From the IMG/VR virus record IMGVR_UViG_2925939204_000002: DNA of 31,902 nt, one strand, 5' to 3'. The DNA is from a virus (Duplodnaviria > Heunggongvirae > Uroviricota > Caudoviricetes). Below the pieces are notes generated by a model that was given only the letters and a program-made list of their open reading frames with translations, was not told the origin of the DNA and did no database searches. This document shows, piece after piece, positions 1 to 31,902 of this stretch (positions within the stretch are counted from its first letter, which is position 1; each line of letters starts with the position of its first letter). Position numbers and translations under genes: made by a program.

Positions 1-903
1 TTATGAAAGCATAGACCGTTTACCCTCCCTGGGTACGACGGAACAGGGGTCCTGATGGATAATTACATCCGATCCCGGAAAACGCCGTAAAATAGCCTGC
101 TCTACCTGATCCGCCACCATATGTGCCTGAACCAAAGGCAGAGAGTCTTCCATTTCCAAATGAATCTGAATAAAGCGGGTCGGCCCTGACTGCCGCGTGC
201 GAAGATCGTGAGCGCCGCTAACACCCGGCCAGGAAGTCACGATATCAATAATTTCTTGCCGTTCCTCATCAGGCAATGCGCGATCCAGTAATGACTGTAC
301 CGCCTCATATCCCATGCGTAACGCGCTATATAAAATATAGATGCCGATTCCCAATGCAAACAGAGCATCGGCGCGATGCCAGCCGTACCAGGACAACCCC
401 AGCGCCAGCAGAATTGCGCCGTTCATCATAACATCAGACTGGTAATGTAGCATATCAGCCCGCACCGCCTGGCTTTGCGTCCGGCGCACCACCCAACGCT
501 GAAACGAGACAAGGATAATCGTACAAATTAGCGCCACAATTGTCACGATAACCCCGACGCCTGGATCTGTCATCGGTGTTGGAGATATCAGATGTTGAAT
601 ACCCGTCAAAAACAGGAATAGTGCCGAACCGGAGATAAACATACTTTGCGCCAGCGCCGCGAGGGACTCTGCTTTACCGTGACCAAACGAGTGATTATCG
701 TCGGCAGGTTGCAGGGAATATCGCACCACCAGTAAATTCGTCAACGACGCGCCGATATCCACCAGCGAATCCACCAGCGCGGCGAGAATACTCACCGACC
801 CGGTATACCACCATGCAAAAATTTTAATCAGCAATAGCAACGAAGCCATCGCCGTCGCAGCAATCGCCGCCCGACTGACCAGCCGTCCATAAGATTGATT
901 CAT
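1..903 (-). CDS. fieF: Cation diffusion facilitator ferrous-iron/zinc efflux transporter FieF (YiiP); chromosomal flank
   Basis: ORF 1..921 translation from [17 protein letters not shown]... matches enterobacterial FieF as I recall it; multiple TM helices and the [14 protein letters not shown] motif; ATG at 903-901 gives about 300 aa. Confidence 0.9.
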
Positions 904-984
904 AAATACTCCCGCTATCAACTGACGCTAGTATAACGGAAGCAAATCATCTGCAATGCATTAAGCAGCAGGCAAATTGAGGAT

Positions 985-1603: not shown

Positions 1604-1632
1604 AAACCCGCCATGTAGGCGGGTTATTTTTA
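1604..1632. terminator. Hairpin terminator at the 3' end of ogr, possibly bidirectional
   Basis: aacccgcc-atgtag-ggcgggtt stem-loop (1604-1625) followed by atttttac on plus strand and by a weaker U tract on minus strand; overlaps the ogr stop codon. Confidence 0.45.
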
Positions 1633-1872
1633 CAGTGCCAGCGATAGCTGATCTTCGCCGTGGTGACTTCGTGGAAAAGCTTCTTGTGGCACCATCGCGC
1701 CGGGCGCTGGCTGGGTCTGGTTTAATGAACCGTCTATTTCCGTCATGCTGGTGAAACAGTACCCGCATAACATGTTTTGACACTGGTGATAGCTGCGCCG
1801 TACAAGCAAACTCAGCTCAACGCTGGTTCTGGTTTTTGCTATAGCACGGCAGCGAGGACAGCGCATTGCCAT
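1630..1872 (-). CDS. ogr: Ogr/Delta-family zinc-finger late transcription activator
   Basis: 80-aa product with CPRC ... HQCQNMLC Cys4 arrangement as in P2 Ogr; strong RBS aaggagg 6 nt upstream of ATG at 1872; sits downstream of D as in P2. Confidence 0.8.
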   Translation of the reverse strand: MAMRCPRCRAIAKTRTSVELSLLVRRSYHQCQNMLCGYCFTSMTEIDGSLNQTQPAPGAMVPQEAFPRSHHGEDQLSLAL

Positions 1873-1920
1873 ACGCGGGCCTCCTTTCAGGACTGGTTAA
1901 TATCAACGCAAGTATAACGC

Positions 1921-3039
1921 TTAAGACGTTGAATCGTCACTCTCCGCTGTCCAGTCGTCGATTTTTACTTCCAGTTCCAGCGACGTGGTAAACCCTCCCC
2001 CGCCAACATCGTGAACGCACCGTGTTATCGTCCAGCTTCCACTGTCGATCGTGGACTTAAACCCATAAACACTGGCTGGCTGTTCCGGGTACAAATCCGC
2101 GCGCCCACGCGCCAGGGTGATGCTGAACGTAGCCGCCCCGCGCTGCAACTCCCGCCACTTAGCCGCTGCGGCACGCTTTGCCGCCTTTTCCGTCTTGAAG
2201 GTTTTACGGATAACAAAAACGTTGCCTTCGGCCCCGGCCAGATAATCCCCTTCTTTTTTGCTTGATGCGGGTTCTTTCTTTTTGGCCTGGCTGGTTCGTC
2301 GCCTGCGGGTGGTTTTCTTCACGGTAGTGGATGGTTTCTTGCCAAAGTTGAGATCAAGCCAGTATGCAGTTACGCCCGTGTACGCGTCGCGGTCAGCTAC
2401 GTTAAACCGATGTTTATCACCGCTTGACCGGACTATCTCGATCACCGGCAGCGGCTTGCCGCTCTGCGTTACTCCCTTGCCCGGCGTGATAAACAGAAGC
2501 ATACCGTTTTTAATGGTTGCCACCGCGCCCAGCATTTCGGCCATGCGCGTTAAGAAGCTGATATCTGATTCACTCGTCTGATCGGCGTGATCTATCTCAA
2601 TCTTCGCCAGTTCTTCGCTGACGCCCGCACGCAGATCGTAACGGCTGGCAATGCTGGCAACCACATCCCCCACGGTAATATCGTGCCAGCTATATTCCCT
2701 CTTCACGTTAAAGGTATCGCGGAAATCTGCGCTTCTGGCACTGATCGTTAGCTGGTCAGGCGGGCCAGAGTGTCCGATCTCGTCAACCGTATACACGCCC
2801 TTAAAAACCAATGGATCATTATCCCAGCCCAGCGCCACCGATATCTTTGCGCCGCGTGATGGTAAGGCTACCTGCCCGTCTGCATCATCCAGAGTCAGAT
2901 CCAGCGTGTCCGCTTCAAAGCCCCGGTTATCTGTCAGGGAAAGGGAGATCAGCCGGTTATCCAGCGCCGTAAGCTGCTTACCTTCAATCTCAATACTGAA
3001 CGCCGGGCGCGGCGAATATCGGTTTTCTGTCGTGTCCAT
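1921..3039 (-). CDS. Phage late control / tail protein D (P2 gpD family)
   Basis: 372-aa product, N-terminus MDTTENRYSPRPAFSIEIEGKQLTALDNRL typical of gpD; position next to ogr. Confidence 0.85.
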   Translation of the reverse strand: MDTTENRYSPRPAFSIEIEGKQLTALDNRLISLSLTDNRGFEADTLDLTLDDADGQVALPSRGAKISVALGWDNDPLVFKGVYTVDEIGHSGPPDQLTISARSADFRDTFNVKREYSWHDITVGDVVASIASRYDLRAGVSEELAKIEIDHADQTSESDISFLTRMAEMLGAVATIKNGMLLFITPGKGVTQSGKPLPVIEIVRSSGDKHRFNVADRDAYTGVTAYWLDLNFGKKPSTTVKKTTRRRRTSQAKKKEPASSKKEGDYLAGAEGNVFVIRKTFKTEKAAKRAAAAKWRELQRGAATFSITLARGRADLYPEQPASVYGFKSTIDSGSWTITRCVHDVGGGGFTTSLELEVKIDDWTAESDDSTS

Positions 3040-3106
3040 ATCAACCCCTTCATCATGATGGGGTACATCGTCGCCACGCGCGCGCGCATGAACAACGCCC
3101 CGTCAT

Positions 3107-3124
3107 TGTTGCAGGTTGCTGACA
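3107..3124. promoter_or_regulatory. Candidate Ogr-binding dyad (TGT-N12-ACA) of a late promoter between D and FI
   Basis: tgt tgcaggttgctg aca is an exact TGT-N12-ACA; centre about 3115, roughly 55 bp from the expected FI start site and symmetrically placed relative to D. Confidence 0.45.
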
Positions 3125-3196
3125 ACCCTTATCCATCGCATCGGCCCGCCATTGCCGCAATGATATTCGCAGTCATTAAACTGGCGAGGCAAATAC

Positions 3197-4390
3197 ATGG
3201 CCACTAACTACCATCACGGTGTAACCGTCACGGAAACCACCGACCTTAGCACGATGATCACCGACATTGATTCGGCGGTGATCGGCGTTGTCTGCACCGC
3301 TGATGATGCGGACGAAACAGCGTTCCCGCTGGATACCCCTGTACTGATTACCCGCGTGGCTAACATGCTGGGCAAGGCAGGTAAAACCGGCACCCTGTTT
3401 ACCACCCTGAAAGCGATTTCAGACCAGACCAGCCCGCAAACCATTGTGATCCGCGTTGCTGATGCTGCAAATATCGAACCGCCAGAAGGCGGCACCGCAC
3501 AGACCCAGGATCAACTGGTTATTGGCGGCACCGATGCAAACGGGCGCTTTACCGGCATGTACGCGCTGCTGTCTGCCGAAATGCGCGTAGGTGTGCGCCC
3601 GCGTGTACTGGCTGTTCCAGGGCTTGATACGGAAGCGGTAGCCGCACAACTCGGCGTCATTGCCGAAAAGCTGCGCGCGTTTGCTTACGTGGCAGCGAAC
3701 GGTTGCAACACAATCGCCGAAGTGAAGGAATACCGCGAGCAATTCTCCCAGCGTGAAATGATGGTTATCTGGCCTAATTTCATCTGCTACGACACCAACG
3801 CCGGGGCTAATGCCACCGTGCCCGTGGGTGCCCATGCTGTTGGGATGCGAGCCAAAATCGACGCAACGCAGGGCTGGCATAAAACCATTTCCAACGTGCC
3901 CGTTAATAACGTGCTGGGGATGGATCGGGATATCTATTTCACGTTGCAGGGCACCGATACCGACGCCGACGAACTGAACGCAGCAGGCGTTACCACGCTG
4001 ATCAAGCAGGACGGCTACCGCATCTGGGGATCGCGTACCTGCGACGCGGAAACGTATATCTTCGAAAGCTATACCCGAACCGCGCAGATAGTTGCGGATA
4101 CCGTCGCCGAAGCCCATTTCGCCTATGTTGATAAACCGCTTACCCCGTCGCTGGTAAAGGACATTGTGGACGGCATCAATAAGAAGCTGACCTCATACGT
4201 GACGGCTGGCAAGCTGCTGGGCGCCCGCTGCTGGTATGACCCGGAACCGAATACCTCGGAAACCCTGCGCAATGGTCAACTGACCATTAAGTACAACTAC
4301 ACCCCTGTTCCACCGCTGGAAAATCTCAGCCTGGTACAGGAGTTCACCGACGAATATTTCGCTACGTTTTCCAGCGCAGTGAATAACTAA
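3197..4390 (+). CDS. Contractile tail sheath protein (P2 gpFI family)
   Basis: 397-aa product, size and N-terminus MATNYHHGVTVTETTDLS consistent with gpFI; followed by tube gene. Confidence 0.9.
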   Translation: MATNYHHGVTVTETTDLSTMITDIDSAVIGVVCTADDADETAFPLDTPVLITRVANMLGKAGKTGTLFTTLKAISDQTSPQTIVIRVADAANIEPPEGGTAQTQDQLVIGGTDANGRFTGMYALLSAEMRVGVRPRVLAVPGLDTEAVAAQLGVIAEKLRAFAYVAANGCNTIAEVKEYREQFSQREMMVIWPNFICYDTNAGANATVPVGAHAVGMRAKIDATQGWHKTISNVPVNNVLGMDRDIYFTLQGTDTDADELNAAGVTTLIKQDGYRIWGSRTCDAETYIFESYTRTAQIVADTVAEAHFAYVDKPLTPSLVKDIVDGINKKLTSYVTAGKLLGARCWYDPEPNTSETLRNGQLTIKYNYTPVPPLENLSLVQEFTDEYFATFSSAVNN

Positions 4391-4402
4391 CCGGGGGCGC
4401 TT

Positions 4403-4918
4403 ATGGCACTGCCTAAGAAACTCAAATATTTCAATATGTTCTTTGACGGGGATAACTACTTCGGCATGGTGCCGGAAATCACCCCCGCCAAACTCACCAA
4501 AAAAACCGAAGACTACCAGGCGGGTGGTATGCCAGGTTCGGTTGCGGTGGATCTTGGCTTCGACGCTGGCGCCCTGGATATGGATATCACGCTTGGCGGT
4601 CTGGATGCCGGATTGCTGAAAAAATGGGGCGTTACCACTGCGGACGGGATGCAAACACGTTTTGCTGGCTCCTATCAGGACGACGCAACCGGCGACGCTG
4701 TACCGTGCGAAATCCAGACGCGTGGCCGCTTCACTGAACTGGATCCCGGTTCGGCAAAAGTCGGGGATGACACTTCGCATAAGTACACCCTGAAAAACAC
4801 CTATTACAAGCTGACCATCAACGGCGAAGAGATTATCGAAGTTGATGTGCTCAACATGATCTACAAAGTTGCCGGTGTGGATGTGCTGGAAAAACACCGC
4901 GCTAACATCGGCCTATAA
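4403..4918 (+). CDS. Tail tube protein (P2 gpFII family)
   Basis: 171-aa product MALPKKLKYFNMFFDGDNYFG, size and position match gpFII. Confidence 0.9.
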   Translation: MALPKKLKYFNMFFDGDNYFGMVPEITPAKLTKKTEDYQAGGMPGSVAVDLGFDAGALDMDITLGGLDAGLLKKWGVTTADGMQTRFAGSYQDDATGDAVPCEIQTRGRFTELDPGSAKVGDDTSHKYTLKNTYYKLTINGEEIIEVDVLNMIYKVAGVDVLEKHRANIGL

Positions 4919-4932
4919 GGAAACCCGGCACC

Positions 4933-5268
4933 ATGAGCAAAACCAAAGAAAACACCGTTATTCTTACCGCCCCTATTACGCGCGGTAAGACCAAAATCAC
5001 CGAAGTGGCGATCACTTCCATGCTTAAACAGGCTGGATCACTGCGCGGCTTAAAAGCCTATGACGTGCTGACTTCCAACTATGACGCGCTGGTTATTCTG
5101 CTGCCCCGCGTTACCGCTCCGGCACTAACCGCCGATGAGATTGCCCGTATGGATACCTGGGATTTTTGCCAGCTAGCCAACGCGGTGGTTGATTTTTTGC
5201 AACCCTCTTCGGATCTGACCGCGACGGATACGGGCAACGAATCATCCGATGCCCCTGCGAACGCATAG
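4933..5268 (+). CDS. Tail assembly chaperone gpE (in-frame product)
   Basis: 111-aa ORF directly upstream of the tape measure gene; contains a slippery heptamer. Confidence 0.75.
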   Translation: MSKTKENTVILTAPITRGKTKITEVAITSMLKQAGSLRGLKAYDVLTSNYDALVILLPRVTAPALTADEIARMDTWDFCQLANAVVDFLQPSSDLTATDTGNESSDAPANA

Positions 5269-5393
5269 AAGACCTGATGGCAGATATCGCCGTCATATTC
5301 CACTGGCGGCCGGTAGAGATGGACGCCATGACGGTACAGGAAATACTGTTATGGCGTGATCAGGCGGCTGCGCGCAGTGGTGGAGATCACTAA
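4933..5393 (+). CDS. Tail assembly chaperone gpE+E' made by programmed -1 frameshift
   Basis: The -1 frame after the slippery site stays open to TAA at 5391-5393, immediately before the T start; expected from the conserved E/E' (lambda G/GT-like) arrangement. Confidence 0.6.
5193..5199 (+). promoter_or_regulatory. Slippery heptamer TTTTTTG for the gpE/E' -1 ribosomal frameshift
   Basis: T TTT TTG in the E reading frame at 5193-5199; the -1 frame is open from here to 5393. Confidence 0.55.
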
Positions 5394-8321
5394 ATGGCAG
5401 ACCGCAATTTAAATATCAGGGTGGCATTCAGCGCCCTGAATAATATGTCCCGCCCTGTCAACGCGGCGCGCCAGAGTGCCGCCGCGTTGGCGTCTCAAAT
5501 CAACCAGACTAAAACCAGCATTAAAGGGCTTGAGCGTCAGGCAACCAGCTTTGACCGCCTCACCGCAGCCAATAAAAAAACCACCGAACAACTGGCCCAG
5601 GCGAAAGAACAGGCCCGGCAAATGGCGGCGGCTTATGGCCCGTTACGCCAGCGCAGCGCCGAACAAGTTGCCGCCCTCAATCAGCAACGTGCAGCCATTC
5701 GCCAGTTAACCCAGCAGCAGAAAGGCGAGCAGACGCAGCTTAACCAGTTGCGGGCCAGCTTCTACAGCGAAGGCATTGCGATCAGCAGCGCCAGCCGGGC
5801 GACGGAACAGATCAACCAGCGCACCGCGCAATACAACCGCCAGCTTGCTGAACAGCAACGACGGCTTGACGCTGTTAACCAGGCGCAGGCCCGTTACAGC
5901 CGCGCCAAAGAAACCGGCGAAAAGATGATGAGCGGGGGAATGAAAACCGCCGCAGTAGGGGCGGCAACACTCGTACCTGTCGCCGCTGCGGTGAAATCCT
6001 ACAGCAGCCTCGAAGACGCGATGAAGGGCGTAGCCAAACAGGTAAATGGCTTACGTGACGACAGCGGCAACCGCACCCCGCAGTATGAAGAAATGCAGCG
6101 GGCGATCATGGATGCCAGCGAAAAGCTGCCAATGGCTAACGGTGCTGTTGACTATGCCGCCCTGGTCGAAGGCGGCGCGCGTATGGGCGTCGCAAACAGC
6201 GATGATCCCTGGCAAAAGCAAAAAGCCGATCTGCTGTCTTTTGCCAGCATGGCGGCAAAAGCTTCGGTAGCCTTTGAACTGCCCGCCGATCAGCTTTCTG
6301 AAAGCCTGGGGAAAATTGCCGGGCTGTATAAAATCCCCACCCAGAATATTGAACAGTTAGGCGACGCCATAAACTACCTGGACGATAACGCGAAGTCGAA
6401 AGGCTCCGATATTATCGACGTACTCCAGCGCGTTGGTGGGCTTGCCAGCCAACTGGATTACAAGCAAGCCGCCGCGCTAGGTTCCACCTTTCTGACGCTC
6501 GGCACCCCTGCCGAAGTTGCCGCCAGCGCCACCAATGCAATGGTGCGCGAACTCTCAATCGCTACGGTTCAGGGCAAAAACTTTATGCAGGGTCTGGACG
6601 CCCTCGGCCTCAGCGCCGAAAAAGTTCAGAAGAGCATGTCAGTGGACGCGATGGGCACAATCATTTCAGTGCTGGAAGCGTCCAAAAAACTGGCCCCGGA
6701 TCAGCAGGTAGCCAACCTTACCCAGATTTTTGGCAAAGAGTTCGGCGATGATGCGCAGAAACTTGCCAACAACCTGCCCGAACTACGCCGCCAGATAGAA
6801 CTGACGCAGGGCGCAGCCGCTAAAGGTTCCATGAATAGGGAGTCTGATATCAATAAAGCTTCCCTTTCTGCTCAATGGCAACTGACAAAAACCGGCGCGG
6901 TTAACGCATTCAGTTCAGCAGGTGAAACCCTTCGCGATCCGCTGATGGATATCATGCTTACCGTCAGTAAGGTGGTTGGCAGCGTCCGCCGCTGGGTGGA
7001 GGCAAACCCAGCGCTGGTTGGTTCAATCATGAAAGTCACCGCAGCCATAGGCGCTTTGCTGGTTGTCATGGGTGGCCTGATGCTGTCCATCGGCGCAGTA
7101 CTTGGCCCAATGGCACTTGTTCGCCTCAGCTTCACCTCGCTGGCCGGGGAAGGAGGAATAGCGCGTCTGACTGGCGGAGTAATGCGCCTGGGTGGTGCGT
7201 TCCAGTGGCTTGCTGGCTCGCCTATGCAGGCATTGTTAAGCGCCGGTCGCATGGTATTCGGCCCGCTTATCACGCTACTGGCTGGCATTTCTGCGCCCGT
7301 CTGGGGGCTGATTGCTCTCTTTGCTGCGGTAGCAGTGGCCGTAATTAAATTCTGGCAACCGATTAAGGCATTTTTCAGCGGCTTCTTTACCGGTCTGATG
7401 GCTGGCCTTCAACCAATAACGCAGTCGTTTAACGCCGTATTCGCACCACTGGCCCCGATTTTTAACAGTATCGGCAACGCGATCAGCGGCGTCTGGGAAT
7501 GGTTTACCAAACTACTGGAGCCGATCCAGTTTTCCAGTGAAGCGCTGGCATCCTGCACCAGTGCAGGGGAAACCTTCGGTAAGGTGGTTGGGGCCACAAT
7601 CAGCGCGCTGACGCTTCCCATTCAGGCCGTAGCCAAAGGGCTGGGCTGGATTCTGGAAAAGCTGGGCGCCATTCCCGACGCAGCGAAAGCAGCGCAGCAG
7701 GTTGCGCAGCAAATGACGCCGGAAGCGGTAAACAATCTGGCAGACCGGGTTAACGCCTTTTCCGGTGACGTGCAGGCAGTCGCGAAGGAAAGCAAAAAAG
7801 CCGAAGAGAAAAAGAAAACCGATGAGCAGAAGAAACAGGACAACCTGATTAACTCGCTCAAAGGCCCGGCCAACATCGTGCCGAAGATGAGCAACAGCCT
7901 GGACAAGATCGCCACCAATACCACGGAGAAGAAAGACGGCCCCGGCGAAATTGTCTTCAAGAATAAGCAGCCCTATATCCCGATCCGTGGCGGATATTCG
8001 GAACCGCTTAAGCAGGCGCAGCGCCAGCTACCATCCCTTACCGATTGGGTGACGCAGCAGGCCGGATCGCTGATCGCTTCCGTTACGCCTTGGCAGGTTG
8101 AGAAGCCCGCCGCACGGATGCCTGTTTCGGCGTCTCCGTCTGCGGCTTCCGTCGCTGCGCTGATGCCTGCTCCGGGTGGCGATGTATATAACCTTAACTT
8201 CGACTTTAGCGGCCAGAAACTGGATGAAGAAACCATTATCAGGCGCGTGCGCGAAGAACTTGCGTTAGCGAAGCAACAGGCCGACCGGCGCAAGCGCTCC
8301 CAACTGACCGATCACGTCTAA
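5394..8321 (+). CDS. Tail tape measure protein (P2 gpT family)
   Basis: 975-aa product with coiled-coil N-terminal third, hydrophobic Gly/Ala-rich central segments and charged C-terminus; follows E/E'. Confidence 0.9.
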   Translation: MADRNLNIRVAFSALNNMSRPVNAARQSAAALASQINQTKTSIKGLERQATSFDRLTAANKKTTEQLAQAKEQARQMAAAYGPLRQRSAEQVAALNQQRAAIRQLTQQQKGEQTQLNQLRASFYSEGIAISSASRATEQINQRTAQYNRQLAEQQRRLDAVNQAQARYSRAKETGEKMMSGGMKTAAVGAATLVPVAAAVKSYSSLEDAMKGVAKQVNGLRDDSGNRTPQYEEMQRAIMDASEKLPMANGAVDYAALVEGGARMGVANSDDPWQKQKADLLSFASMAAKASVAFELPADQLSESLGKIAGLYKIPTQNIEQLGDAINYLDDNAKSKGSDIIDVLQRVGGLASQLDYKQAAALGSTFLTLGTPAEVAASATNAMVRELSIATVQGKNFMQGLDALGLSAEKVQKSMSVDAMGTIISVLEASKKLAPDQQVANLTQIFGKEFGDDAQKLANNLPELRRQIELTQGAAAKGSMNRESDINKASLSAQWQLTKTGAVNAFSSAGETLRDPLMDIMLTVSKVVGSVRRWVEANPALVGSIMKVTAAIGALLVVMGGLMLSIGAVLGPMALVRLSFTSLAGEGGIARLTGGVMRLGGAFQWLAGSPMQALLSAGRMVFGPLITLLAGISAPVWGLIALFAAVAVAVIKFWQPIKAFFSGFFTGLMAGLQPITQSFNAVFAPLAPIFNSIGNAISGVWEWFTKLLEPIQFSSEALASCTSAGETFGKVVGATISALTLPIQAVAKGLGWILEKLGAIPDAAKAAQQVAQQMTPEAVNNLADRVNAFSGDVQAVAKESKKAEEKKKTDEQKKQDNLINSLKGPANIVPKMSNSLDKIATNTTEKKDGPGEIVFKNKQPYIPIRGGYSEPLKQAQRQLPSLTDWVTQQAGSLIASVTPWQVEKPAARMPVSASPSAASVAALMPAPGGDVYNLNFDFSGQKLDEETIIRRVREELALAKQQADRRKRSQLTDHV

Positions 8322-8330
8322 GGCAATATC

Positions 8331-8780
8331 ATGATGATGATTCTGGGGATGTTCCCCTTTTCACTGCAAACCACACCTTACCAGAGTGCGAATAAAACCA
8401 ACTCCTGGCGGCACGTCAAAAACGATCGCGTGGGGAAATCCCCGCGCTATCAGTTCATCGGCGCAGATGAAGAACCGTTCGTACTCAGCGGCACGCTGTA
8501 CCCCGAAATAAGCGGCGGTGATGTGTCGCTTGTCATGCTGGAAACTATGGCTTTTTCCGGGCGCCCGTGGCCCCTGATAGAAGGCACGGGCAGGATCTAC
8601 GGCATGTATGTAATTGAGCAGATCACGCAAAACCGGACGGAGTTTTTTAAGGACGGGAAGGCAAAGAAAATTGATTTCACGCTCAACCTGAAACGGGTAA
8701 GCGAGGACATACGGGAAAAGCTGGCTGAAACCACTACCGACGATCTCTTCTCTCTGGTGAAAACCAACCTTTCGATATAA
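8331..8780 (+). CDS. Tail protein U (P2 gpU family)
   Basis: 149-aa product immediately after T; N-terminus MMMILGMFPF. Confidence 0.8.
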   Translation: MMMILGMFPFSLQTTPYQSANKTNSWRHVKNDRVGKSPRYQFIGADEEPFVLSGTLYPEISGGDVSLVMLETMAFSGRPWPLIEGTGRIYGMYVIEQITQNRTEFFKDGKAKKIDFTLNLKRVSEDIREKLAETTTDDLFSLVKTNLSI

Positions 8781-8832: not shown

Positions 8833-8889
8833 CCGTGCTACAGCACCGTTAAAAGTGACCGTACTCGATACACACGGCCAGCACGGTTA
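8833..8889. repeat. Copy A of a ~57-bp structured intergenic repeat
   Basis: 42 of 48 core positions identical to 15461-15508, plus cgtgct upstream; contains 12-bp palindrome gtgct-ac-agcac and conserved tcgatacacacggccagcacggtta; abuts the invertase stop. Confidence 0.5.
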
Positions 8890-9468
8890 TAACCGGCCAT
8901 GCGTGCCGGAATTCTTATCTCTGGTCGCTGGGAATTTTTTGTAAAGCGTAGATATCCCAACATCATAAATTATGGCAACCCTCCGGCGCGATTCCCCTGC
9001 CGCTATTAACCTACCCGCCTGCGCCCATTGTTCTGGTGTTAGTTTTGGACGTCTACCGCCGATCCTTCCCTGCGCGCGAGCGGCCACCAGTCCTGCACGC
9101 GTACGCTCGACAATCAATTCTCTCTCCATCTCTGCCAGTGCTCCCATAACATGAAAAAAGAAACGCCCCATTGGTGTTGAGGTATCAATACTGTCCGTCA
9201 GGCTGCGGAAGTTCACGGAACGTTGCTTTAGTTCCTCCACCAGAATGACCAAGTTCCGCATACTCCGCCCAAGACGATCCAGCTTCCAGACAACAAGCGT
9301 ATCTTCTGGAGAAAGGCGCTTTAGTAATTTTTTAAGCCCTGGCCTTTCCGCTGTTCTCCCGCTCATTTTATCTTCAAAAATTAGCTCACATCCTGACCGC
9401 TCAAGCGCATCACGTTGCAAAGCCGTGTTCTGGTCATTTGTTGATACGCGCACATATCCAATAAGCAT
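8887..9468 (-). CDS. Site-specific DNA invertase, Hin/Gin/Pin/Cin-family serine recombinase
   Basis: 193-aa product MLIGYVRVSTNDQNT...VVWKLDRLGRSMRNL...SPMGRFFFHVMGALAEMERELI, near-identical in motif content to Gin/Pin; catalytic Ser in the YVRVST context; C-terminal HTH. Confidence 0.9.
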   Translation of the reverse strand: MLIGYVRVSTNDQNTALQRDALERSGCELIFEDKMSGRTAERPGLKKLLKRLSPEDTLVVWKLDRLGRSMRNLVILVEELKQRSVNFRSLTDSIDTSTPMGRFFFHVMGALAEMERELIVERTRAGLVAARAQGRIGGRRPKLTPEQWAQAGRLIAAGESRRRVAIIYDVGISTLYKKFPATRDKNSGTHGRL

Positions 9469-9548: not shown

Positions 9549-9641
9549 GGGGGGGAGTGACGGGCTGTGAAGGGCGATGTTGCTCTGATGGAAAATTCCG
9601 GGTCTTGCTGATGCGTGTCGATACAGCAAAACCCGTATGGC

Positions 9642-9875
9642 TTACTCCTCTGGATAATGAGTAGGCGCATTATACTGACTGACGTACTCGTTAAGCTCCG
9701 GCGGGTATGTCACTTTTGCTGTATCTCGCTCTACGTTGAATGTATCCGCTCCCCAGATAACACACTCCCTCAAAAATGCCTCCACCTCTGGCGAGACTTC
9801 AACCGCATCATCAGGTCGCTCTTGTTCAGAAACATAAAAACCAACGGTCGTTGGGCTGAAATAGATATTCTCCAT
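9642..9875 (-). CDS. Tail fibre assembly (Tfa) chaperone-like protein, short form, probably truncated
   Basis: 77-aa product MENIYFSPTTVGFYVSEQERPDDAVEVSPEVEAFL resembles the conserved N-terminal domain of Tfa proteins, but the usual C-terminal domain is absent; lies between tail fibre H and the invertase. Confidence 0.5.
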   Translation of the reverse strand: MENIYFSPTTVGFYVSEQERPDDAVEVSPEVEAFLRECVIWGADTFNVERDTAKVTYPPELNEYVSQYNAPTHYPEE

Positions 9876-9877
9876 AT

Positions 9878-11134
9878 TTAGTATCCTATTGCTTCAAAAT
9901 GCAGTGTCGGTGTTTCGCCGAGATTGGGTGTCGTATACGCCACAGTGAATCGCGTTCTTGATACGTCAGTGCCAGAATCAGTATCGCGATGCGTTGCCAG
10001 TGATTTTCCGGCCATTGTTGCCTGGGTCGAATAGCTGTAACTCGCTAGTGTTGCCAGCGTTGCTATTTGTGCATTTGGGAATTGTCTGGGGAAATTAACC
10101 CTGTAGTAATGGGTGTAGTACGTCACCCCACCGAGCACCTGCGCGCTGAAGTTACCAACTGGTGTCAGTGTCACAGTGCCAGCCTGTCGAATCATACCAT
10201 TTGGGAGAATATCCCAGGCAGTTTGTCCGTTTCGCGACATACCAAATGCGGACATGTCCGGGAGTTGATTATTACCGGTTCCCACGTCCCTTTTTGCCGC
10301 TTCTCCCAATTGAAGGTTTTGTAGAAAAACAGAAACGTTTTCTATGTCTGAACCATTTGCCGATTTATCCATCTTTCCAGCGAGTGAATTTGTTACGGTG
10401 GTAGCAAAGTTAGGATCATTACCCAAAGCCGCAGCAAGTTCATTCAGCGTATCCAGCGCTTCAGGCGAAGAGCCAACCAAAGCAGCAATAGCAGCCTGAA
10501 CGAAAGCTGTATTTGCAATTTGAGTAGAACTATCTTTGCCTTCCGCCGTTGGCGCAGTCGGCCTGCCAGTAAGAGCGGGACTTTCTTTTGGTGCGTATTG
10601 TTTATGCGGATCAGCCGCAGCTACATGCGCTGCCATTTTCTGATCAACATAGCTTTTCACCTGGATGATCTGATCATCAACATACTGTCGGGTTGCCAGA
10701 ACTACCGAAGGGTCAATTTTCAGCGTTACGGCAGCGGTGCTGCTGACAATCAGGATCATGCGTACAACCTGTACGCGCCCGCTTCCCTCCTGTAACTGCG
10801 GCTTATACGTTTCCGCACAGTTGGCTACGGCAATCATATCGCCGTCTTTATCGAATAAACCGATTTCACGGATCCACCACCCGCCCTCGTCTTCAGGTAT
10901 CACCTGCTCGGCAATAATCTGGTTGGCGTTATTCGGGTCAATGCTCAGACTATTAAGCGGCTTGCGGCGCAGCTCATGAACCAGCGCCGTTTGTGCCGGG
11001 TTCGGCGTCGGCAACACGCCGTTACCATCGCCTACAGCCATCTGGGTGATTTCAACCTGCGCACCCAATGCCGTGGCATTTGCCAGTTTCGCCGCGCCCA
11101 CATTGGTTAGCACGGCATAATATTTAGTCGCCAC
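9878..11134 (-). CDS. Tail fibre protein (P2 gpH family), about 418 aa from GTG start
   Basis: N-terminal region ATKYYAVLTNVGAAKLANATALGAQVEITQMAVGDGNG...SGRVQVVRMILIVSS matches the conserved gpH N-terminal domain; GTG at 11134-11132 overlaps the gpI stop. Confidence 0.85.
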   Translation of the reverse strand: MATKYYAVLTNVGAAKLANATALGAQVEITQMAVGDGNGVLPTPNPAQTALVHELRRKPLNSLSIDPNNANQIIAEQVIPEDEGGWWIREIGLFDKDGDMIAVANCAETYKPQLQEGSGRVQVVRMILIVSSTAAVTLKIDPSVVLATRQYVDDQIIQVKSYVDQKMAAHVAAADPHKQYAPKESPALTGRPTAPTAEGKDSSTQIANTAFVQAAIAALVGSSPEALDTLNELAAALGNDPNFATTVTNSLAGKMDKSANGSDIENVSVFLQNLQLGEAAKRDVGTGNNQLPDMSAFGMSRNGQTAWDILPNGMIRQAGTVTLTPVGNFSAQVLGGVTYYTHYYRVNFPRQFPNAQIATLATLASYSYSTQATMAGKSLATHRDTDSGTDVSRTRFTVAYTTPNLGETPTLHFEAIGY

Positions 11135-11738
11135 TTGCGATCTCCACGGTGTCAATTAAATGGATTGCCGCCCCGGTGTAATCATCACCGCCCACGGCTA
11201 TGGTTTCAGGAAAATACGGGTACACGGTTAGCGTATCGCCGGAATAACTGCCCGCGCCGATATACAGATCGCCGGTTGTTTGCAGGTGAAGAGACATTCC
11301 CAGCATATGACGGCTGCACGGCTTCACATCGGCGATCAGGCGTTCAAGTTCCTGATAGGTTTCTTCACTAATGCCCTGGTCTTCCACGCCAATATCCAGC
11401 GTGAAGGTGCCCGGTGCGGTGTCGATGTTCCACCACTCGTTAACCCGGATGAAGAAGCCGAACGGCTCCACAACCCGGCGCATGGCGCCCGTTGTACCCT
11501 TGTACTTATGCAGGTAAAACGCATCGGCCACTGCCTTTCGTTTTGTGTTTATCGGCCAGGCCTCATCCCAGCGATCAACGGAGAAGGCCCACGCCAGATA
11601 GGGCAACAGATCAGCCCGACACGTCCACGGGTTCCACAACTGGCGCAGCGGCACGGGCACTTCACCCAACGACGCACAGACGCGCGCGGCGACGCGCTCC
11701 ATTCGGCTGGCGCTGGGTGGTAACAGGTCATTACTCAT
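11124..11738 (-). CDS. Baseplate/tail protein I (P2 gpI family)
   Basis: MSNDLLPPSASRMERVAARV N-terminus; ATG at 11738 overlaps the J stop (ATGAGTAA arrangement). Confidence 0.85.
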   Translation of the reverse strand: MSNDLLPPSASRMERVAARVCASLGEVPVPLRQLWNPWTCRADLLPYLAWAFSVDRWDEAWPINTKRKAVADAFYLHKYKGTTGAMRRVVEPFGFFIRVNEWWNIDTAPGTFTLDIGVEDQGISEETYQELERLIADVKPCSRHMLGMSLHLQTTGDLYIGAGSYSGDTLTVYPYFPETIAVGGDDYTGAAIHLIDTVEIASGD

Positions 11739-24576: not shown

Positions 24577-26946
24577 TTATATCTCATTTAATAAATGGCC
24601 CTTAAACGCTGCCTTCATCCTGTTCACAAGGTCGCTTGTCTTTTTCTTCGCTGCCATCACCTGTGACGGCAGCTTATCCAGCCCGGATGCGGCGCGGTTG
24701 CGCGATACCAACCGCCCGTCCTGCACGGTCATAACAAGATCACCGCACGCCACTGACGCACCGGCCATCATCGATCTGACCATTCCGGCGCTTGCATCAA
24801 TCCCACGTAGCGCCAGCAGTTCACTGATCTGCTGCTCTTTGACTGATAGCCCTGCTTCCTCTTCCCATTCCGGTGGCCGCGTTTTCCGCTTGGCGCGTAC
24901 ATCGTCACTTAATCGCTGCGCCAGTTCCCGCTTTTCTTGCCGTGAAAGAGCATCAAAATTCACCGTCTCGCCCACTTCGTGATCGGCATGTTCAAGACCG
25001 TCAGCACCTGTTGCGGGATCCCGCGTACAGTTATTGACAGAACTCCGAGGGGCGGCGCTGCCGCCTGAAAAACCAACGTCAACGGCCACACCGTCAGCGC
25101 TCTGGCGCTTCGGCACGATTTTGTATTTAGTGGTGCGGGTGAAGATCAAAGAGTCATTGCCCGTAATCGGGCAATAGATACCGGTGATTCGCTGGACGTT
25201 ATCGCCGTAGGCGTTGCCGTTTTCAGTGGTTTCATAATTCAGACGGATGCGCAGCTTATCGCGCTCAACCAACGGGCCACCCTGGGCTAATACGTAGTTA
25301 TCCCATTCGCCACCGTTAGCGGCCTGCCGGGCGGTTTCCAGTTCAGGGTGTAACACCAGTTCGCGATCGCCCAGGCGGCGAAGTTCGCGATATACCGTGA
25401 CCGGTGCACCGCCGATCTGCTGAAACTGACGAATAGCCCAGCGCGATGCCCACGCGCTAACGCGGAGTGACATTTCTTTCAGGTCTTCCCCGGTTTCGTC
25501 GTCCTTCTCACCATCCAGCGCGAAGCCGTCGATATTCTTCGAAATGTATTTCGCTATGTAGCCGGTTGCGCTGCCGTGGGCATCATCGATCGGCACAACC
25601 TGAAAGCGGTTTTCCTGCGCTCCCGGTTCGTTGCCGTCTTCTTTCAGGGCATATTTACGGAAGATTTCGCGCGCCTGCTCGACGCATTCCGGGCGCATAA
25701 AAAGAAGTAAATGCCAGTGTGGCGTTGCATCGTGGTGCGGTTCGACCACGCGAAAACCAAAGACGCGGATCCCTTTTCTCTTCCACGCTGCGCGGGTTCT
25801 CGCCCAGACTTTGCAAAGATATTGCTGCGTCTCGCGCGGCGATGCGCCACAGTATTTATTATTGCGGCGCCCGTTATGCTGCATGGAGTGGTAACGGGAA
25901 GGTGCTGTCAGCGTGTAGAAGTCACCGGCCAGCCCTTCCAGCTTCGCCAGATCTTCAAATCCGCGCATTCTCGTCATGAGTTCGCGGCGACGGTTGGCCG
26001 GATTGGCAACACTACCGGCGACTTTATCGATCAGTGAAATGCGTTCGCCCGTGTCCTGGTCTTCCAGTTCCATAGCCTTAAGGTATTCACGGTTAGCCTT
26101 TTTTTGGGCCAACCATTCCGTAAGGCACGGGGCGCTACTGTATGGGAAAGATTTTTTCTGGACGTATCCCGCAGCGATCATCAAATGCTCACGCCACCGG
26201 GCATGGATACGGCGCAGGCGGTTTAACCACCACTGCGGTGACTCAAGGCGAAGAACCGCGCGTAACGCGTCCTCCGCTTCCAGTTCTTCATTGCAATACG
26301 CCGTCCAGCCGGGGATCGGAGTTTTCAGATGCACCGCCAGCGACGCAATACGGCCATAGCCAGAAAGCGCCGCGAACTCAGGATCTCCGGTGCGTGCCAA
26401 TTGGTGATCGGACTCGCGTATAAACTCGCTCGTAAAGATATCGGCAAGCGTATAAGCCAGTCTTTTTAACTCTTTCTTCCCTGCCCAGAGCATACGGAAC
26501 AGCTGATCGCGGATTGGCAGCAGAATGCCGGGCATCACAGTGTCAGGCTGGTAAACACTGTTCACACTATCAATTCGCGTTAATACGTGGCGCTCAAAGG
26601 TATTAACCAGCCAGTGATCTGCCGCTTTGCGGTCTTTCGCGTCCAGTGCATCCAGCTTCGCGGCAAAGTGGCGGCGGATATACTGCGGAAGTGAAGCCAG
26701 ACGGCGACGCAGCAGCTTGCTGCGCTCCGGCTTTTCGTCTTCCGCTACCAGTTCACTGAACGCAATATGCTTACGCGTGCCGTCCGGCGTGAGATAGTCG
26801 AAACCATCCAGCCCCGGCGCTACATCAACGCCAATAGGCTGGTATGGTTTGTTTCCCCCATAAGCGTAAGGGATAGCATTGTCAGTGCTACCCGGATACG
26901 GTGGAGGTGGAGAAGGGGCGCGACGGCCACGGGTTTCCGTGGTCAT
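24577..26946 (-). CDS. Rolling-circle replication initiator A (P2 gpA family, HUH endonuclease)
   Basis: 789-aa product with PHWHLLLF (HUH motif) and TGYIAKYISK (catalytic Tyr region). Confidence 0.9.
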   Translation of the reverse strand: MTTETRGRRAPSPPPPYPGSTDNAIPYAYGGNKPYQPIGVDVAPGLDGFDYLTPDGTRKHIAFSELVAEDEKPERSKLLRRRLASLPQYIRRHFAAKLDALDAKDRKAADHWLVNTFERHVLTRIDSVNSVYQPDTVMPGILLPIRDQLFRMLWAGKKELKRLAYTLADIFTSEFIRESDHQLARTGDPEFAALSGYGRIASLAVHLKTPIPGWTAYCNEELEAEDALRAVLRLESPQWWLNRLRRIHARWREHLMIAAGYVQKKSFPYSSAPCLTEWLAQKKANREYLKAMELEDQDTGERISLIDKVAGSVANPANRRRELMTRMRGFEDLAKLEGLAGDFYTLTAPSRYHSMQHNGRRNNKYCGASPRETQQYLCKVWARTRAAWKRKGIRVFGFRVVEPHHDATPHWHLLLFMRPECVEQAREIFRKYALKEDGNEPGAQENRFQVVPIDDAHGSATGYIAKYISKNIDGFALDGEKDDETGEDLKEMSLRVSAWASRWAIRQFQQIGGAPVTVYRELRRLGDRELVLHPELETARQAANGGEWDNYVLAQGGPLVERDKLRIRLNYETTENGNAYGDNVQRITGIYCPITGNDSLIFTRTTKYKIVPKRQSADGVAVDVGFSGGSAAPRSSVNNCTRDPATGADGLEHADHEVGETVNFDALSRQEKRELAQRLSDDVRAKRKTRPPEWEEEAGLSVKEQQISELLALRGIDASAGMVRSMMAGASVACGDLVMTVQDGRLVSRNRAASGLDKLPSQVMAAKKKTSDLVNRMKAAFKGHLLNEI

Positions 26947-30921: not shown

Positions 30922-31902
30922 ATGTCGATTAAGAAGCTCGAAGGTGGTCAATATGAAGTGGACGTATGGCCGCGCGGACGTAACGGAAAACGTATCCGCA
31001 GGCGATTTGAGAAGAAACAAGAGGCAGTTCTTTTTGAGCGTTATGTATTAGCCAACGCCGACAAAAAAGAATGGCTGGGCGCGAGCGTTGACCGCCGCAC
31101 CTTAAGCGAGTTGTTAAATACTTGGTGGCTGCTATATGGACAGACTCAGGAAAATGGCGAGATTGAAAAGCGGCATCTGAATAAAACAATCAGGGCGCTT
31201 GGTGATCCAGCCGTTAACCGACTGAACAAGCGAATGATTGCACAGCACCGTAGCCAACGGCTGGAAGACGGTATCAGCGCAGCAACGATCAACCGGGATA
31301 TTTACCGCTTGTCCGGGATGTTCAGCACGTTGATAAAGCTGGAAGAGTTCAGGAAGGAAAACCCCTGTAAGGGTCTGGAACCACTGAAAGAAGCACCGCC
31401 AGCTATGACCTACCTCGCCAAATCAGAGATCAGCAAATTGCTGGATACTCTGACCGGCGACGATCGACGCGTAGCACTGTTATGCCTAAGCACCGGCGCA
31501 CGCTGGGGCGAAGGTAGCACGCTGCGAGGCGAGCAGGTAAATCACGGGCGCGTGACGTTTCTTAAGACCAAAAACGGGAAAAAGCGCACGGTTCCGATAT
31601 CGGAAGAACTGGAGAAAGAGATCAAGACCAGCGACACTGGGCCACTGTTCAAAGTTGACTATGAAAACTTCTGCGAACGGCTCAGACAGGTTAAGCCCGA
31701 TTTACCACGCGGGCAGGCCACGCATGTGCTTCGGCATACATTTGCAAGCTGGTTCATGATGAACGGGGGGAACATTATTGCGTTACAGCAAATTCTGGGG
31801 CACGCCAGCATACAACAGACGATGGTTTATGCTCACCTTGCACCTGATTACCTGCAACACGCAGTAACGTTAAACCCTCTCGGCGGCGGGCTGGCGGTGT
31901 GA
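30922..31902 (+). CDS. int: Tyrosine site-specific integrase (P2 Int family)
   Basis: 326-aa product with catalytic region HVLRHTFASWFMMNGGNIIALQQILGHASIQQTMVYAHL (conserved His/Arg and Tyr); GGAGGG RBS; stop codon is the last triplet of the window. Confidence 0.9.
   Translation: MSIKKLEGGQYEVDVWPRGRNGKRIRRRFEKKQEAVLFERYVLANADKKEWLGASVDRRTLSELLNTWWLLYGQTQENGEIEKRHLNKTIRALGDPAVNRLNKRMIAQHRSQRLEDGISAATINRDIYRLSGMFSTLIKLEEFRKENPCKGLEPLKEAPPAMTYLAKSEISKLLDTLTGDDRRVALLCLSTGARWGEGSTLRGEQVNHGRVTFLKTKNGKKRTVPISEELEKEIKTSDTGPLFKVDYENFCERLRQVKPDLPRGQATHVLRHTFASWFMMNGGNIIALQQILGHASIQQTMVYAHLAPDYLQHAVTLNPLGGGLAV

What the first reader, a model, noticed from the sequence alone, without database searches (positions are those of the whole stretch)
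5193..5393. Programmed -1 frameshift site for the E/E' tail chaperone
A TTTTTTG heptamer in the E frame with an open -1 frame extending exactly to the T start codon is the conserved arrangement for tail assembly chaperones. It is noted because the in-frame E product here (111 aa) is longer than I recall for P2.
Basis: partly seen in the sequence, partly recalled or inferred. Interest (0 to 1): 0.25.

Follow-up and report, generated by a model that had tools for sequence, protein, structure and literature searches.

The report
P2-type tail chaperone frameshift site
This is the ordinary, well-known ribosome "slip" site that lets P2-like phages make two versions of a tail-assembly helper protein from one gene. 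It sits in an E. coli prophage whose public records have not annotated the slip.

Summary
T_TTT_TTG (5193-5199) lies in phase in the gpE-like ORF (4933-5268, 111 aa), between the tail tube gene and the tape measure gene T. The -1 frame is open from 5193 to TAA 5391-5393, and the T ATG follows at 5394. The -1 segment carries the Pfam Phage_P2_GpE domain (E 4.8e-16). The 153-aa conceptual fusion aligns end to end with P2 E+E' (40% identity, E 3e-36) straight through the slip site.

In 88 related loci the heptamer is invariant, and the preceding codon always ends in T although it encodes six different amino acids. Coding constraint switches from the 0 frame to the -1 frame at this site. The internal ATG that public records use as an E' start is not conserved.

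No downstream RNA structure is predicted or conserved. The 111-aa E is within the family range of 91-124 aa, because the 0-frame tail after the slip site varies in length.

Verdict: an orthologue of the experimentally proven P2 E/E+E' programmed -1 frameshift. It is already known and of low interest. The only added value is an annotation correction for Senquatrovirus-type phages and prophages.

The parts
4403..4918 (+). Tail tube gene (gpFII homologue). It lies immediately upstream of E and is given as context for the tube, chaperone, tape measure gene order.
   Evidence: PF04985 Phage_tube, E 3.4e-61. ORF.
4933..5268 (+). E: the 0-frame tail assembly chaperone product, 111 aa, stop TAG 5266-5268. 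The AAGGA Shine-Dalgarno lies about 10 nt upstream of ATG 4933.
   Evidence: ORF and translation. phrog_103 'tail protein' E 2.8e-34. PF10109 Phage_TAC_7 23.5 bits, just under the 25-bit cutoff. Annotated with the same coordinates in SEN5 and in E. coli AR_0118.
5193..5199 (+). Slippery heptamer T_TTT_TTG. Phe codon TTT (5194-5196) occupies the P site and Leu codon TTG (5197-5199) the A site. After a -1 slip the tRNAs re-pair on TTT TTT (5193-5198), and decoding resumes at GCA 5199-5201.
   Evidence: Sequence. The same heptamer carries the annotated P2 frameshift site. It is invariant as TTTTTT[G/A] (TTTTTTT in the Vibrio phage) in 88 relatives, while neighbouring synonymous sites vary.
5199..5393 (+). 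E' segment in the -1 frame: 64 codons plus TAA 5391-5393. The linker is 5199-5276 and the GpE' domain is 5277-5390.
   Evidence: Translation. PF06528 Phage_P2_GpE, E 4.8e-16, on fusion residues 116-150. phrog_1756 covers fusion residues 95-151, including part of the linker. pN/pS in the -1 frame is 0.26 for the domain and 0.47 for the linker.
4933..5393 (+). Predicted E+E' fusion, 153 aa, join(4933..5199, 5199..5393): MSKTKENTVILTAPITRGKTKITEVAITSMLKQAGSLRGLKAYDVLTSNYDALVILLPRVTAPALTADEIARMDTWDFCQLANAVVDFL|ATLFGSDRDGYGQRIIRCPCERIEDLMADIAVIFHWRPVEMDAMTVQEILLWRDQAAARSGGDH
   Evidence: BLASTP against P2 E+E' (142 aa) gives 40% identity and E 3e-36, aligning residues 4-153 with 2-141 continuously across the junction. 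tblastn finds the same two-frame arrangement in 384 of 413 matching phage records.
5277..5279 (+). Internal ATG in the -1 frame, used as the start of a 38-aa 'hypothetical protein' in the SEN5 GenBank record. It is probably not a real start.
   Evidence: SEN5 annotation. The equivalent codon is ATC in 15 related loci and GTG in 2. In distant Peduoviridae it encodes Ala, Ile or Tyr. No GGAG/AGGA/GAGG motif lies in the 15 nt upstream.
5319..5321 (+). Second internal ATG in the -1 frame, used by RefSeq/PGAP as the start of a 24-aa 'GpE family phage tail protein'.
   Evidence: E. coli AR_0118 annotation, locus 6420-6494, which equals window 5319-5393.
5382..5385 (+). GGAG Shine-Dalgarno for T, inside the end of E', 8 nt before ATG 5394. 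The E' stop and the T start abut (TAAATG).
   Evidence: Sequence. A tight E'-stop/T-start junction is seen in all relatives.
5394..8321 (+). T: tape measure protein, 975 aa, the presumed client of the E and E+E' chaperones.
   Evidence: PF10145 PhageMin_Tail, E 4.5e-22. ORF.

Best explanation
This is the orthologue of the bacteriophage P2 E/E+E' programmed -1 ribosomal frameshift, carried by a Senquatrovirus-type (SEN4/SEN5-like) P2-family prophage of E. coli.

Most ribosomes translate E (4933-5268) in frame and release a 111-aa tail assembly chaperone. A minority slip back one base when tRNA-Phe (P site, UUU 5194-5196) and tRNA-Leu (A site, UUG 5197-5199) re-pair on UUU UUU (5193-5198). These ribosomes then read GCA at 5199 onward in the -1 frame and terminate at TAA 5391-5393, directly in front of the T start. 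The product is a 153-aa E+E' fusion that shares the first 89 residues of E and carries the conserved GpE' domain at its C terminus.

By analogy with lambda gpG/gpGT, the shared E part would bind the tape measure protein T. The E' part would recruit the tube protein, and the slip frequency would fix the E:E+E' ratio needed for tail assembly.

Shown here: the anatomy, the homology of both frames, nucleotide-level conservation of the heptamer, and the switch of coding constraint at the site. Inferred: that the fusion is actually made, its frequency, and the binding partners.
For: - Phase and geometry are as described.
- Gene order is sheath, tube, E, T, U, each with a Pfam hit.
- The -1 segment matches PF06528 Phage_P2_GpE at E 4.8e-16, 58 bits against a 23-bit cutoff. 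phrog_103, phrog_1756 and phrog_6416 also match.
- The fusion aligns with P2 E+E' along its full length at 40% identity and E 3e-36, with VVDFL|ATLFG opposite VVGFL|VAELG.
- The P2 RefSeq record annotates a joined E+E' CDS and a 'site of -1 translational frameshift' inside the same TTTTTTG.
- Published statements agree. P2 makes the 91-aa E and 142-aa E+E' by a -1 shift at TTTTTTG (PMC3091744). P2 E' lacks a ribosome binding site (PMC3931495).
- All 85 loci chosen by tube-protein similarity, independently of E, have an in-phase TTTTTT[G/A] at the homologous place, with the -1 frame open to the T start. The same holds in 10 phages of other Peduoviridae genera. Seven of these use TTTTTTG; the others use TTTTTTT, GGGAAAG or AAATTTT.
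- In 88/88 loci the codon before the run ends in T, although it is GAT, ACT, GGT, TCT, AGT, AAT or GCT (six different amino acids). Phe is always TTT and Leu always TTG or TTA, while flanking third positions vary freely.
- pN/pS across 44 unique sequences:
  - upstream of the site: 0.18 in frame 0 and 2.39 in frame -1;
  - GpE' domain: 0.26 in frame -1 and 1.70 in frame 0;
  - linker between the heptamer and the first ATG: 0.47 in frame -1 and 0.75 in frame 0.
- The -1 frame is open from the heptamer to the domain in every lineage examined.
- The candidate internal start ATG 5277 is not conserved.
Against: - There is no direct evidence for the fusion protein from this element or from SEN4/SEN5. 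The SEN4/5 paper does not mention frameshifting.
- No downstream stimulatory structure is predicted or conserved, and there is no Rfam match.
- In a systematic E. coli reporter study, ZZN codons of mixed purine/pyrimidine type such as UUG were poorer shifters than homogeneous ones. Heptamers without stimulators gave only 2-10 times a roughly 0.05% background (PMC4066793). What sets the efficiency here is therefore unexplained.
- The E part scores just below Pfam's Phage_TAC_7 cutoff (23.5 against 25 bits), and NCBIfam gives no hit.
- The tube-selected loci are close relatives (73-100% tube identity), so part of the conservation reflects shared ancestry.
Confidence: 0.93

Rival explanations
1. 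E' is a separate small gene translated by independent initiation at ATG 5277 (38 aa) or ATG 5319 (24 aa), as public records annotate it. Under this reading the heptamer is incidental.
For: SEN5 GenBank and RefSeq annotate a 38-aa ORF, and PGAP annotates a 24-aa 'GpE family phage tail protein' in E. coli. ATG is present at the 5277-equivalent position in 68 of 85 loci. The Pfam GpE model begins exactly at that Met.
Against: - The two annotations disagree on the start codon.
- No Shine-Dalgarno motif precedes either ATG.
- The 5277-equivalent codon is ATC (Ile) in 15 loci and GTG in 2. In distant relatives it encodes Ala, Ile or Tyr.
- The -1 frame stays open, and under constraint (pN/pS 0.47), for the 26 codons between the heptamer and that ATG.
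- phrog_1756 homology extends upstream of the Met, to fusion residue 95.
- The heptamer is conserved at synonymous sites.
- P2 E' is reported to lack a ribosome binding site and to be made as an extension of E (PMC3931495; PMC3091744).
Confidence: 0.04
2. The frame change happens at the RNA level. RNA polymerase slips on the T6 run and inserts one extra U in a fraction of transcripts, which are then translated conventionally into E+E'.
For: A homopolymeric T6 run is present, lengthening to T7 in the Vibrio phage and in Smp131-like phages (PMC3931495). The protein product would be almost identical, so sequence analysis cannot separate the two routes. The frameshifting literature notes that candidate sites need a demonstration of 'frameshifting (or transcriptional slippage)' (PMC4066793).
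Against: - From general knowledge, not tested here: efficient transcriptional slippage in E. coli needs runs of about 8-9 or more A/T.
- Relatives use G_GGA_AAG (Mannheimia) or A_AAT_TTT (Escherichia phage 503458) at the same position. These are tandem-slippage heptamers but not long homopolymers.
- The strict requirement for T at the third position of the preceding codon, in the exact X_XXY_YYZ phase, is what ribosomal tandem slippage predicts. A polymerase does not sense reading frame.
Confidence: 0.02
3. Chance coincidence: an accidental TTTTTTG and an accidentally open -1 frame with no biological role.
For: TTTTTTG is not over-represented in the window: 13 copies against 8.4 expected, and 7 of 100 shuffles reach 13. 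About 23% of all XXXYYYZ sites in the window have at least 64 open codons in the -1 frame.
Against: The -1 frame encodes a curated Pfam domain at E 4.8e-16 and is under purifying selection. The site is conserved in all 95 related loci checked, which span ten Peduoviridae genera plus one Vibrio phage with no assigned family.
Confidence: 0.01

Closest known systems
Bacteriophage P2 genes E and E+E' (programmed -1 frameshift in the FETUD tail operon; Christie et al. 2002, J Bacteriol 184:6522, cited through PMC3091744 and PMC3931495)
   Same: - Same position, between tube gene FII and tape measure gene T.
- Same heptamer T_TTT_TTG in the same phase.
- Same direction of shift (-1).
- Homologous E and E' parts: 40% identity over the whole fusion, E 3e-36.
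- The E' end abuts or overlaps the T start.
- No downstream hairpin.
   Different: - E is 111 aa rather than 91 aa, and E+E' is 153 aa rather than 142 aa.
- The 0-frame tail after the slip is 22 aa rather than 6 aa.
- The linker carries a 9-residue insertion that includes a CPC motif.
- E' stops one base before the T ATG (TAAATG), whereas in P2 it overlaps T by 8 nt.
- The whole FI-FII-E-T-U block is divergent from D/ogr rather than co-linear with it.
Salmonella phage SEN4/SEN5 (Senquatrovirus, Peduoviridae) genes SEN5_24 and SEN5_23
   Same: 97.6% nucleotide identity over 4400-5500, with identical geometry and an identical heptamer.
   Different: The public records annotate two separate CDSs ('tail protein' and a 38-aa 'hypothetical protein') and no frameshift. 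The describing paper does not mention frameshifting.
Phage lambda gpG/gpGT tail assembly chaperones (Levin et al. 1993; Xu, Hendrix and Duda 2004, 2013, 2014; summarised in PMC5009743)
   Same: The logic is the same. Two products share an N terminus and are made from a gene just upstream of the tape measure gene. A low-frequency -1 slip on a heptamer sets their ratio. Neither product is found in the virion.
   Different: There is no sequence similarity, as stated for P2 against lambda in PMC3931495. Lambda uses G_GGA_AAG, and it builds a siphovirus tail rather than a contractile one. Within Peduoviridae, a Mannheimia phage uses the lambda-type heptamer at this position.

Membership tests
P2-type E/E+E' tail assembly chaperone with programmed -1 frameshift | The gene lies between the tail tube gene and the tape measure gene | tested here: met
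   Tube 4403-4918 (PF04985, 3.4e-61), E 4933-5268, T 5394-8321 (PF10145, 4.5e-22).
P2-type E/E+E' tail assembly chaperone with programmed -1 frameshift | A second ORF in the -1 frame overlaps the 3' end of E and reaches the T start | tested here: met
   The -1 frame is open 5193-5390, with stop at 5391-5393 and the T ATG at 5394.
P2-type E/E+E' tail assembly chaperone with programmed -1 frameshift | An in-phase slippery heptamer X_XXY_YYZ (T_TTT_TTG in P2) within the overlap | tested here: met
   GA[T TTT TTG] at 5193-5199 is the only in-phase XXXYYYZ in the overlap. P2's annotated site lies in the same heptamer.
P2-type E/E+E' tail assembly chaperone with programmed -1 frameshift | The upstream part is homologous to gpE | tested here: met
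   BLASTP of the fusion against P2 E+E' gives E 3e-36 and covers the E part. phrog_103 scores 2.8e-34. Pfam PF10109 is sub-threshold at 23.5 against 25 bits.
P2-type E/E+E' tail assembly chaperone with programmed -1 frameshift | The -1 part is homologous to the GpE' domain (Pfam PF06528) | tested here: met
   PF06528, E 4.8e-16, 58.4 bits against a 23-bit cutoff.
P2-type E/E+E' tail assembly chaperone with programmed -1 frameshift | E' has no translation start of its own | tested here: inconclusive
   The window has in-frame ATGs at 5277 and 5319, neither with a Shine-Dalgarno motif. The 5277-equivalent codon is a non-start codon (ATC) in 15 relatives and differs again in distant phages. Sequence alone cannot exclude some independent initiation in this phage.
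P2-type E/E+E' tail assembly chaperone with programmed -1 frameshift | The heptamer is conserved beyond what the protein sequence requires | tested here: met
   In 88/88 loci the preceding codon is NNT across six amino acids, Phe is always TTT, and Leu is always TTG or TTA. Flanking wobble positions vary (pS about 0.49).
P2-type E/E+E' tail assembly chaperone with programmed -1 frameshift | The fusion protein is produced at a set fraction of E, and both products are needed for tail assembly | not testable with these tools
   This needs protein analysis or genetics. It is known only for P2 (Christie 2002, cited via PMC3091744).
Frameshift sites with a 3' stimulatory RNA structure (IS3/IS911, dnaX type) | A stable, conserved hairpin or pseudoknot 5-9 nt downstream of the heptamer | tested here: not met
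   MFE z-scores are -1.0 (108 nt), -0.44 (61 nt) and +0.99 (41 nt). The RNAalifold consensus is -1.5 kcal/mol with 0 compensatory pairs. There is no Rfam hit. P2 also lacks such a structure (PMC3091744).

The most novel reading that the evidence does not exclude
The most novel reading not excluded concerns efficiency. This family may reach a substantial frameshift level on a heptamer that is intrinsically weak in E. coli reporters (U_UUU_UUG), without any 3' RNA structure, by means of an unrecognised stimulator. Candidates are the nascent E peptide (the conserved ...W/P-D-F/L-x-x-L-x-x-x-V-x-x-F-L motif just before the slip), the conserved flanking nucleotides, or the G-rich GGTGG element 3-8 nt upstream. 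A related possibility is that the variable 0-frame tail of E (22 aa here) is functional rather than drift.
Probability: 0.1. Interest if true: 0.4.

Novelty: already known. Interest (0 to 1): 0.1.

Why it matters
Its main value is annotation hygiene. SEN4/SEN5 records and about 30 complete E. coli genomes carrying this prophage list E' as a free-standing 24- or 38-aa ORF. It should instead be a joined E+E' CDS with ribosomal slippage: join(4933..5199, 5199..5393) in window coordinates, 153 aa.

It adds no new biology. It is one more instance of the frameshift conserved across P2-like phages, and it shows that the length of the in-frame E product is a labile character (91-124 aa) with no evident significance.

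Tried and rejected
- **Downstream stimulatory structure.** I folded 41-, 61- and 108-nt stretches after the heptamer, and the homologous stretches of P2, SEN8 and two other clades. I also ran RNAalifold on 10 representatives. Nothing was significant or covarying. One clade (L071) gave z = -2.2, but that fold is not shared by the others.
- **Rfam scan of 5050-5500 at E <= 1.** No match.
- **Upstream Shine-Dalgarno-like stimulator.** GGTGG(T) at 5185-5190 resembles an SD. It ends only 2 nt before the heptamer, whereas the systematic search in PMC4066793 looked 6-17 nt upstream. It coincides with conserved Val-Val codons and is absent in phiE12-2, the Vibrio phage and the Shewanella phage. I rejected it as a demonstrated stimulator and kept it only as a remote possibility.
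- **NCBIfam.** No hit for E or for the fusion.
- **The primary P2 paper.** PMC135442 is not held in the library. Facts about P2 are cited through PMC3091744 and PMC3931495, and the roughly 10% efficiency I recall from its abstract is not used as evidence.
- **Geometry-only statistics.** Six of 286 XXXYYYZ sites in the window pass a crude 'long ORF plus long -1 extension' filter. Most of the others appear to be spurious 0-frame ORFs lying over a real gene in another frame, although I checked this only against the ORF list. Geometry alone is therefore weak evidence, and I relied on homology and conservation instead.
- **Invertase region.** A search for an invertible segment around the neighbouring invertase found no flanking inverted repeats of 18 nt or more.
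- **Searches not run.** I did not run the large protein-database searches or a structure prediction, because the answer did not depend on them.

Full report
**Observation**

The window region reads ...GCG GTG GTT GAT TTT TTG CAA CCC... in the frame of an ORF that starts at ATG 4933 and stops at TAG 5266-5268, giving 111 aa. TTTTTTG occupies 5193-5199. Position 5193 is the third base of GAT, so the heptamer is in the canonical X_XXY_YYZ phase (T_TTT_TTG).

The -1 frame has a TGA at 5190-5192. It is then open for 66 codons from 5193 and ends with TAA at 5391-5393. The next base, 5394, starts the ATG of a 975-aa ORF.

**Context**

The surrounding genes are as follows:

| Gene | Coordinates | Strand |
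|---|---|---|
| ogr | 1630-1872 | - |
| gpD homologue | 1921-3039 | - |
| tail sheath | 3197-4390 | + |
| tail tube | 4403-4918 | + |
| tape measure (T) | 5394-8321 | + |
| gpU homologue | 8331-8780 | + |
| replication gene A | 24577-26946 | - |
| integrase | 30922-31902 | + |

The window is thus a complete P2-family prophage. Region 4400-5500 is 100% identical to E. coli AR_0118 and AR_0128, where the prophage lies next to fieF. It is 97.6% identical to Salmonella phages SEN4/SEN5 of the genus Senquatrovirus, family Peduoviridae.

**What the two frames encode**

- The 0-frame product matches phrog_103 'tail protein' (2.8e-34). It matches Pfam Phage_TAC_7 only weakly, at 23.5 bits against a 25-bit cutoff.
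- I built the conceptual -1 fusion from 89 residues of E followed by 64 residues read from GCA 5199, 153 aa in all. It additionally matches Pfam PF06528 Phage_P2_GpE at E 4.8e-16.
- It also matches phrog_1756 over residues 95-151, which is upstream of the first Met of the -1 frame.
- The fusion aligns with P2 E+E' (142 aa) from residue 4 to 153. Identity is 40% and E is 3e-36, and the alignment runs straight across the junction (VVDFL|ATLFG against VVGFL|VAELG).
- The P2 RefSeq record annotates a joined E+E' CDS with a 'site of -1 translational frameshift' inside the same TTTTTTG.
- The literature held in the library agrees. P2 makes the 91-aa E and 142-aa E+E' by a -1 shift at TTTTTTG (PMC3091744). 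P2 E' lacks a ribosome binding site (PMC3931495).

**Comparative test**

To avoid selecting on the site itself, I fetched 80 viral contigs by similarity to the tube protein (73-100% identity) and added five annotated phage loci (L001-L005).

- All 85 have an in-phase heptamer at the homologous codons. It is TTTTTTG or TTTTTTA in every locus except Escherichia phage 503458, which has AAATTTT. In all of them the -1 frame is open from there to the T start.
- Ten phages of other Peduoviridae genera show the same architecture: P2, SEN8, Ralstonia RSY1, Burkholderia phiE12-2, Acidovorax, Shewanella, Yersinia, Vibrio, Mannheimia and Escherichia phage 503458. Seven of them use T_TTT_TTG. The Vibrio phage has T_TTT_TTT, the Mannheimia phage G_GGA_AAG, and phage 503458 A_AAT_TTT.
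- A tblastn search with the fusion finds the two-frame arrangement in 384 of 413 matching phage records.
- At nucleotide level, the codon before the run ends in T in 88/88 loci. Yet that codon is GAT, ACT, GGT, TCT, AGT, AAT or GCT, which encode six different amino acids. Phe is always TTT and Leu always TTG or TTA, while flanking wobble positions vary freely. This is selection on the slippery sequence itself.

**Coding constraint**

pN/pS was computed over 44 unique sequences:

| Segment | Frame 0 | Frame -1 |
|---|---|---|
| Upstream of the site | 0.18 | 2.39 |
| Linker (heptamer to first ATG) | 0.75 | 0.47 |
| GpE' domain | 1.70 | 0.26 |

The reading frame under selection switches at the heptamer. 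The -1 frame is constrained even upstream of any possible internal start.

**Rival: independent initiation**

Public records annotate E' as a free ORF but disagree on its start. SEN5 uses ATG 5277, giving 38 aa. PGAP uses ATG 5319, giving 24 aa. Neither ATG has a Shine-Dalgarno motif.

The 5277-equivalent codon is ATC in 15 loci and GTG in 2. In distant relatives it encodes Ala, Ile or Tyr. Independent initiation cannot be the conserved route, although a minor contribution in this particular phage cannot be excluded from sequence.

**Stimulatory elements**

No significant or conserved RNA structure follows the heptamer:

- MFE z-scores are -1.0, -0.44 and +0.99 for the 108-, 61- and 41-nt stretches.
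- The RNAalifold consensus is -1.5 kcal/mol with no compensatory pair.
- There is no Rfam match.

This matches P2 and the P2-like Burkholderia phages (PMC3091744).

A systematic E. coli study found that heptamers without stimulators are weak, and that mixed purine/pyrimidine A-site codons such as UUG are poorer shifters (PMC4066793). What sets the efficiency in this family remains unexplained. That is the only mildly open question here.

**The 'long E' remark**

P2 E is 91 aa and this E is 111 aa. The slip-site Leu is residue 85 in P2 and residue 89 here. The 0-frame tail after the slip is 6 aa in P2 and 22 aa here (QPSSDLTATDTGNESSDAPANA).

Across the family the tail is 6, 12, 14, 16, 22 or 24 aa, and annotated E lengths run from 91 to 124 aa. 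The tail is compositionally simple and weakly constrained: the 0-frame pN/pS over the linker region, most of which encodes this tail, is 0.75. The length difference is drift in where the 0-frame stop happens to fall within sequence that is selected for its -1 reading. It is not an anomaly.

**Mechanism**

The steps below are inferred from the homology and from established knowledge of P2 E/E+E' and lambda G/GT.

1. tRNA-Phe and tRNA-Leu slip in tandem from UUU UUG to UUU UUU.
2. Decoding continues in the -1 frame to TAA 5391-5393.
3. T is translated from the abutting ATG 5394, which has its own GGAG at 5382-5385.
4. E and E+E' act as tail assembly chaperones on the tape measure and tube proteins at a ratio fixed by the slip frequency.

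**Verdict**

This is an orthologue of a textbook recoding site, so it is already known and of low interest. The practical output is a corrected annotation: join(4933..5199, 5199..5393), 153 aa.

Noticed in passing
window 1630-8780 (ogr 1630-1872 -, D 1921-3039 -, FI-FII-E-T-U 3197-8780 +): The gpD and ogr homologues are on the opposite strand from, and divergent to, the sheath-tube-E-T-U block. In P2 the order FI FII E T U D is co-linear on one strand. SEN5 has the same layout, so this is a lineage trait of Senquatrovirus rather than a rearrangement specific to this prophage.
   Followed up: partly
window 8887-9468 (-), with neighbours 9642-9875 (-) and 9878-11155 (-): A serine recombinase/DNA invertase (Resolvase + HTH_7, E 7e-50) sits between gpU and a 425-aa tail fibre gene. 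SEN5 has the tail-fibre assembly gene G at that place and no invertase. Region 9593-10317 is 92.5% identical to Escherichia phage phi456. No inverted repeats of 18 nt or more delimit an invertible segment, so the invertase may be an orphan or may use short crossover sites.
   Followed up: partly
window 5277-5393 and 5319-5393: Public annotation of E' is inconsistent. SEN5 GenBank and RefSeq give a 38-aa ORF, while PGAP gives a 24-aa 'GpE family phage tail protein' in E. coli genomes (the one record opened, AR_0118; product names in the other hits agree). Ralstonia phage RSY1 has the whole -1 frame annotated as one 156-aa CDS. None of these records annotates ribosomal slippage.
   Followed up: yes
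L089 682-688 (Mannheimia phage 587AP1); L090 619-625 (Vibrio phage PE003); L004 943-949 (Escherichia phage 503458): At the position homologous to the P2 heptamer, other Peduoviridae carry different slippery heptamers: the lambda-type G_GGA_AAG, T_TTT_TTT and A_AAT_TTT. The site has been re-invented or swapped while the two-frame architecture was kept.
   Followed up: partly
window 1-921 (-) and about 1000-31902: The window starts inside the host gene fieF (CDF cation-efflux transporter, next to pfkA in E. coli AR_0118). The rest is the complete prophage, ending with the integrase gene at 30922-31902, so the attachment site lies just downstream of fieF.
   Followed up: no
window 5232-5256 (fusion residues about 101-109): Relative to P2, the E' linker carries a 9-residue insertion containing Cys-Pro-Cys (IIRCPCERIE). 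The first Cys and the Pro are kept in related clades (IHCPFNCVE, ISCPFDQVE), but the motif is absent from P2, SEN8 and the L071 clade. Its significance is unknown.
   Followed up: no
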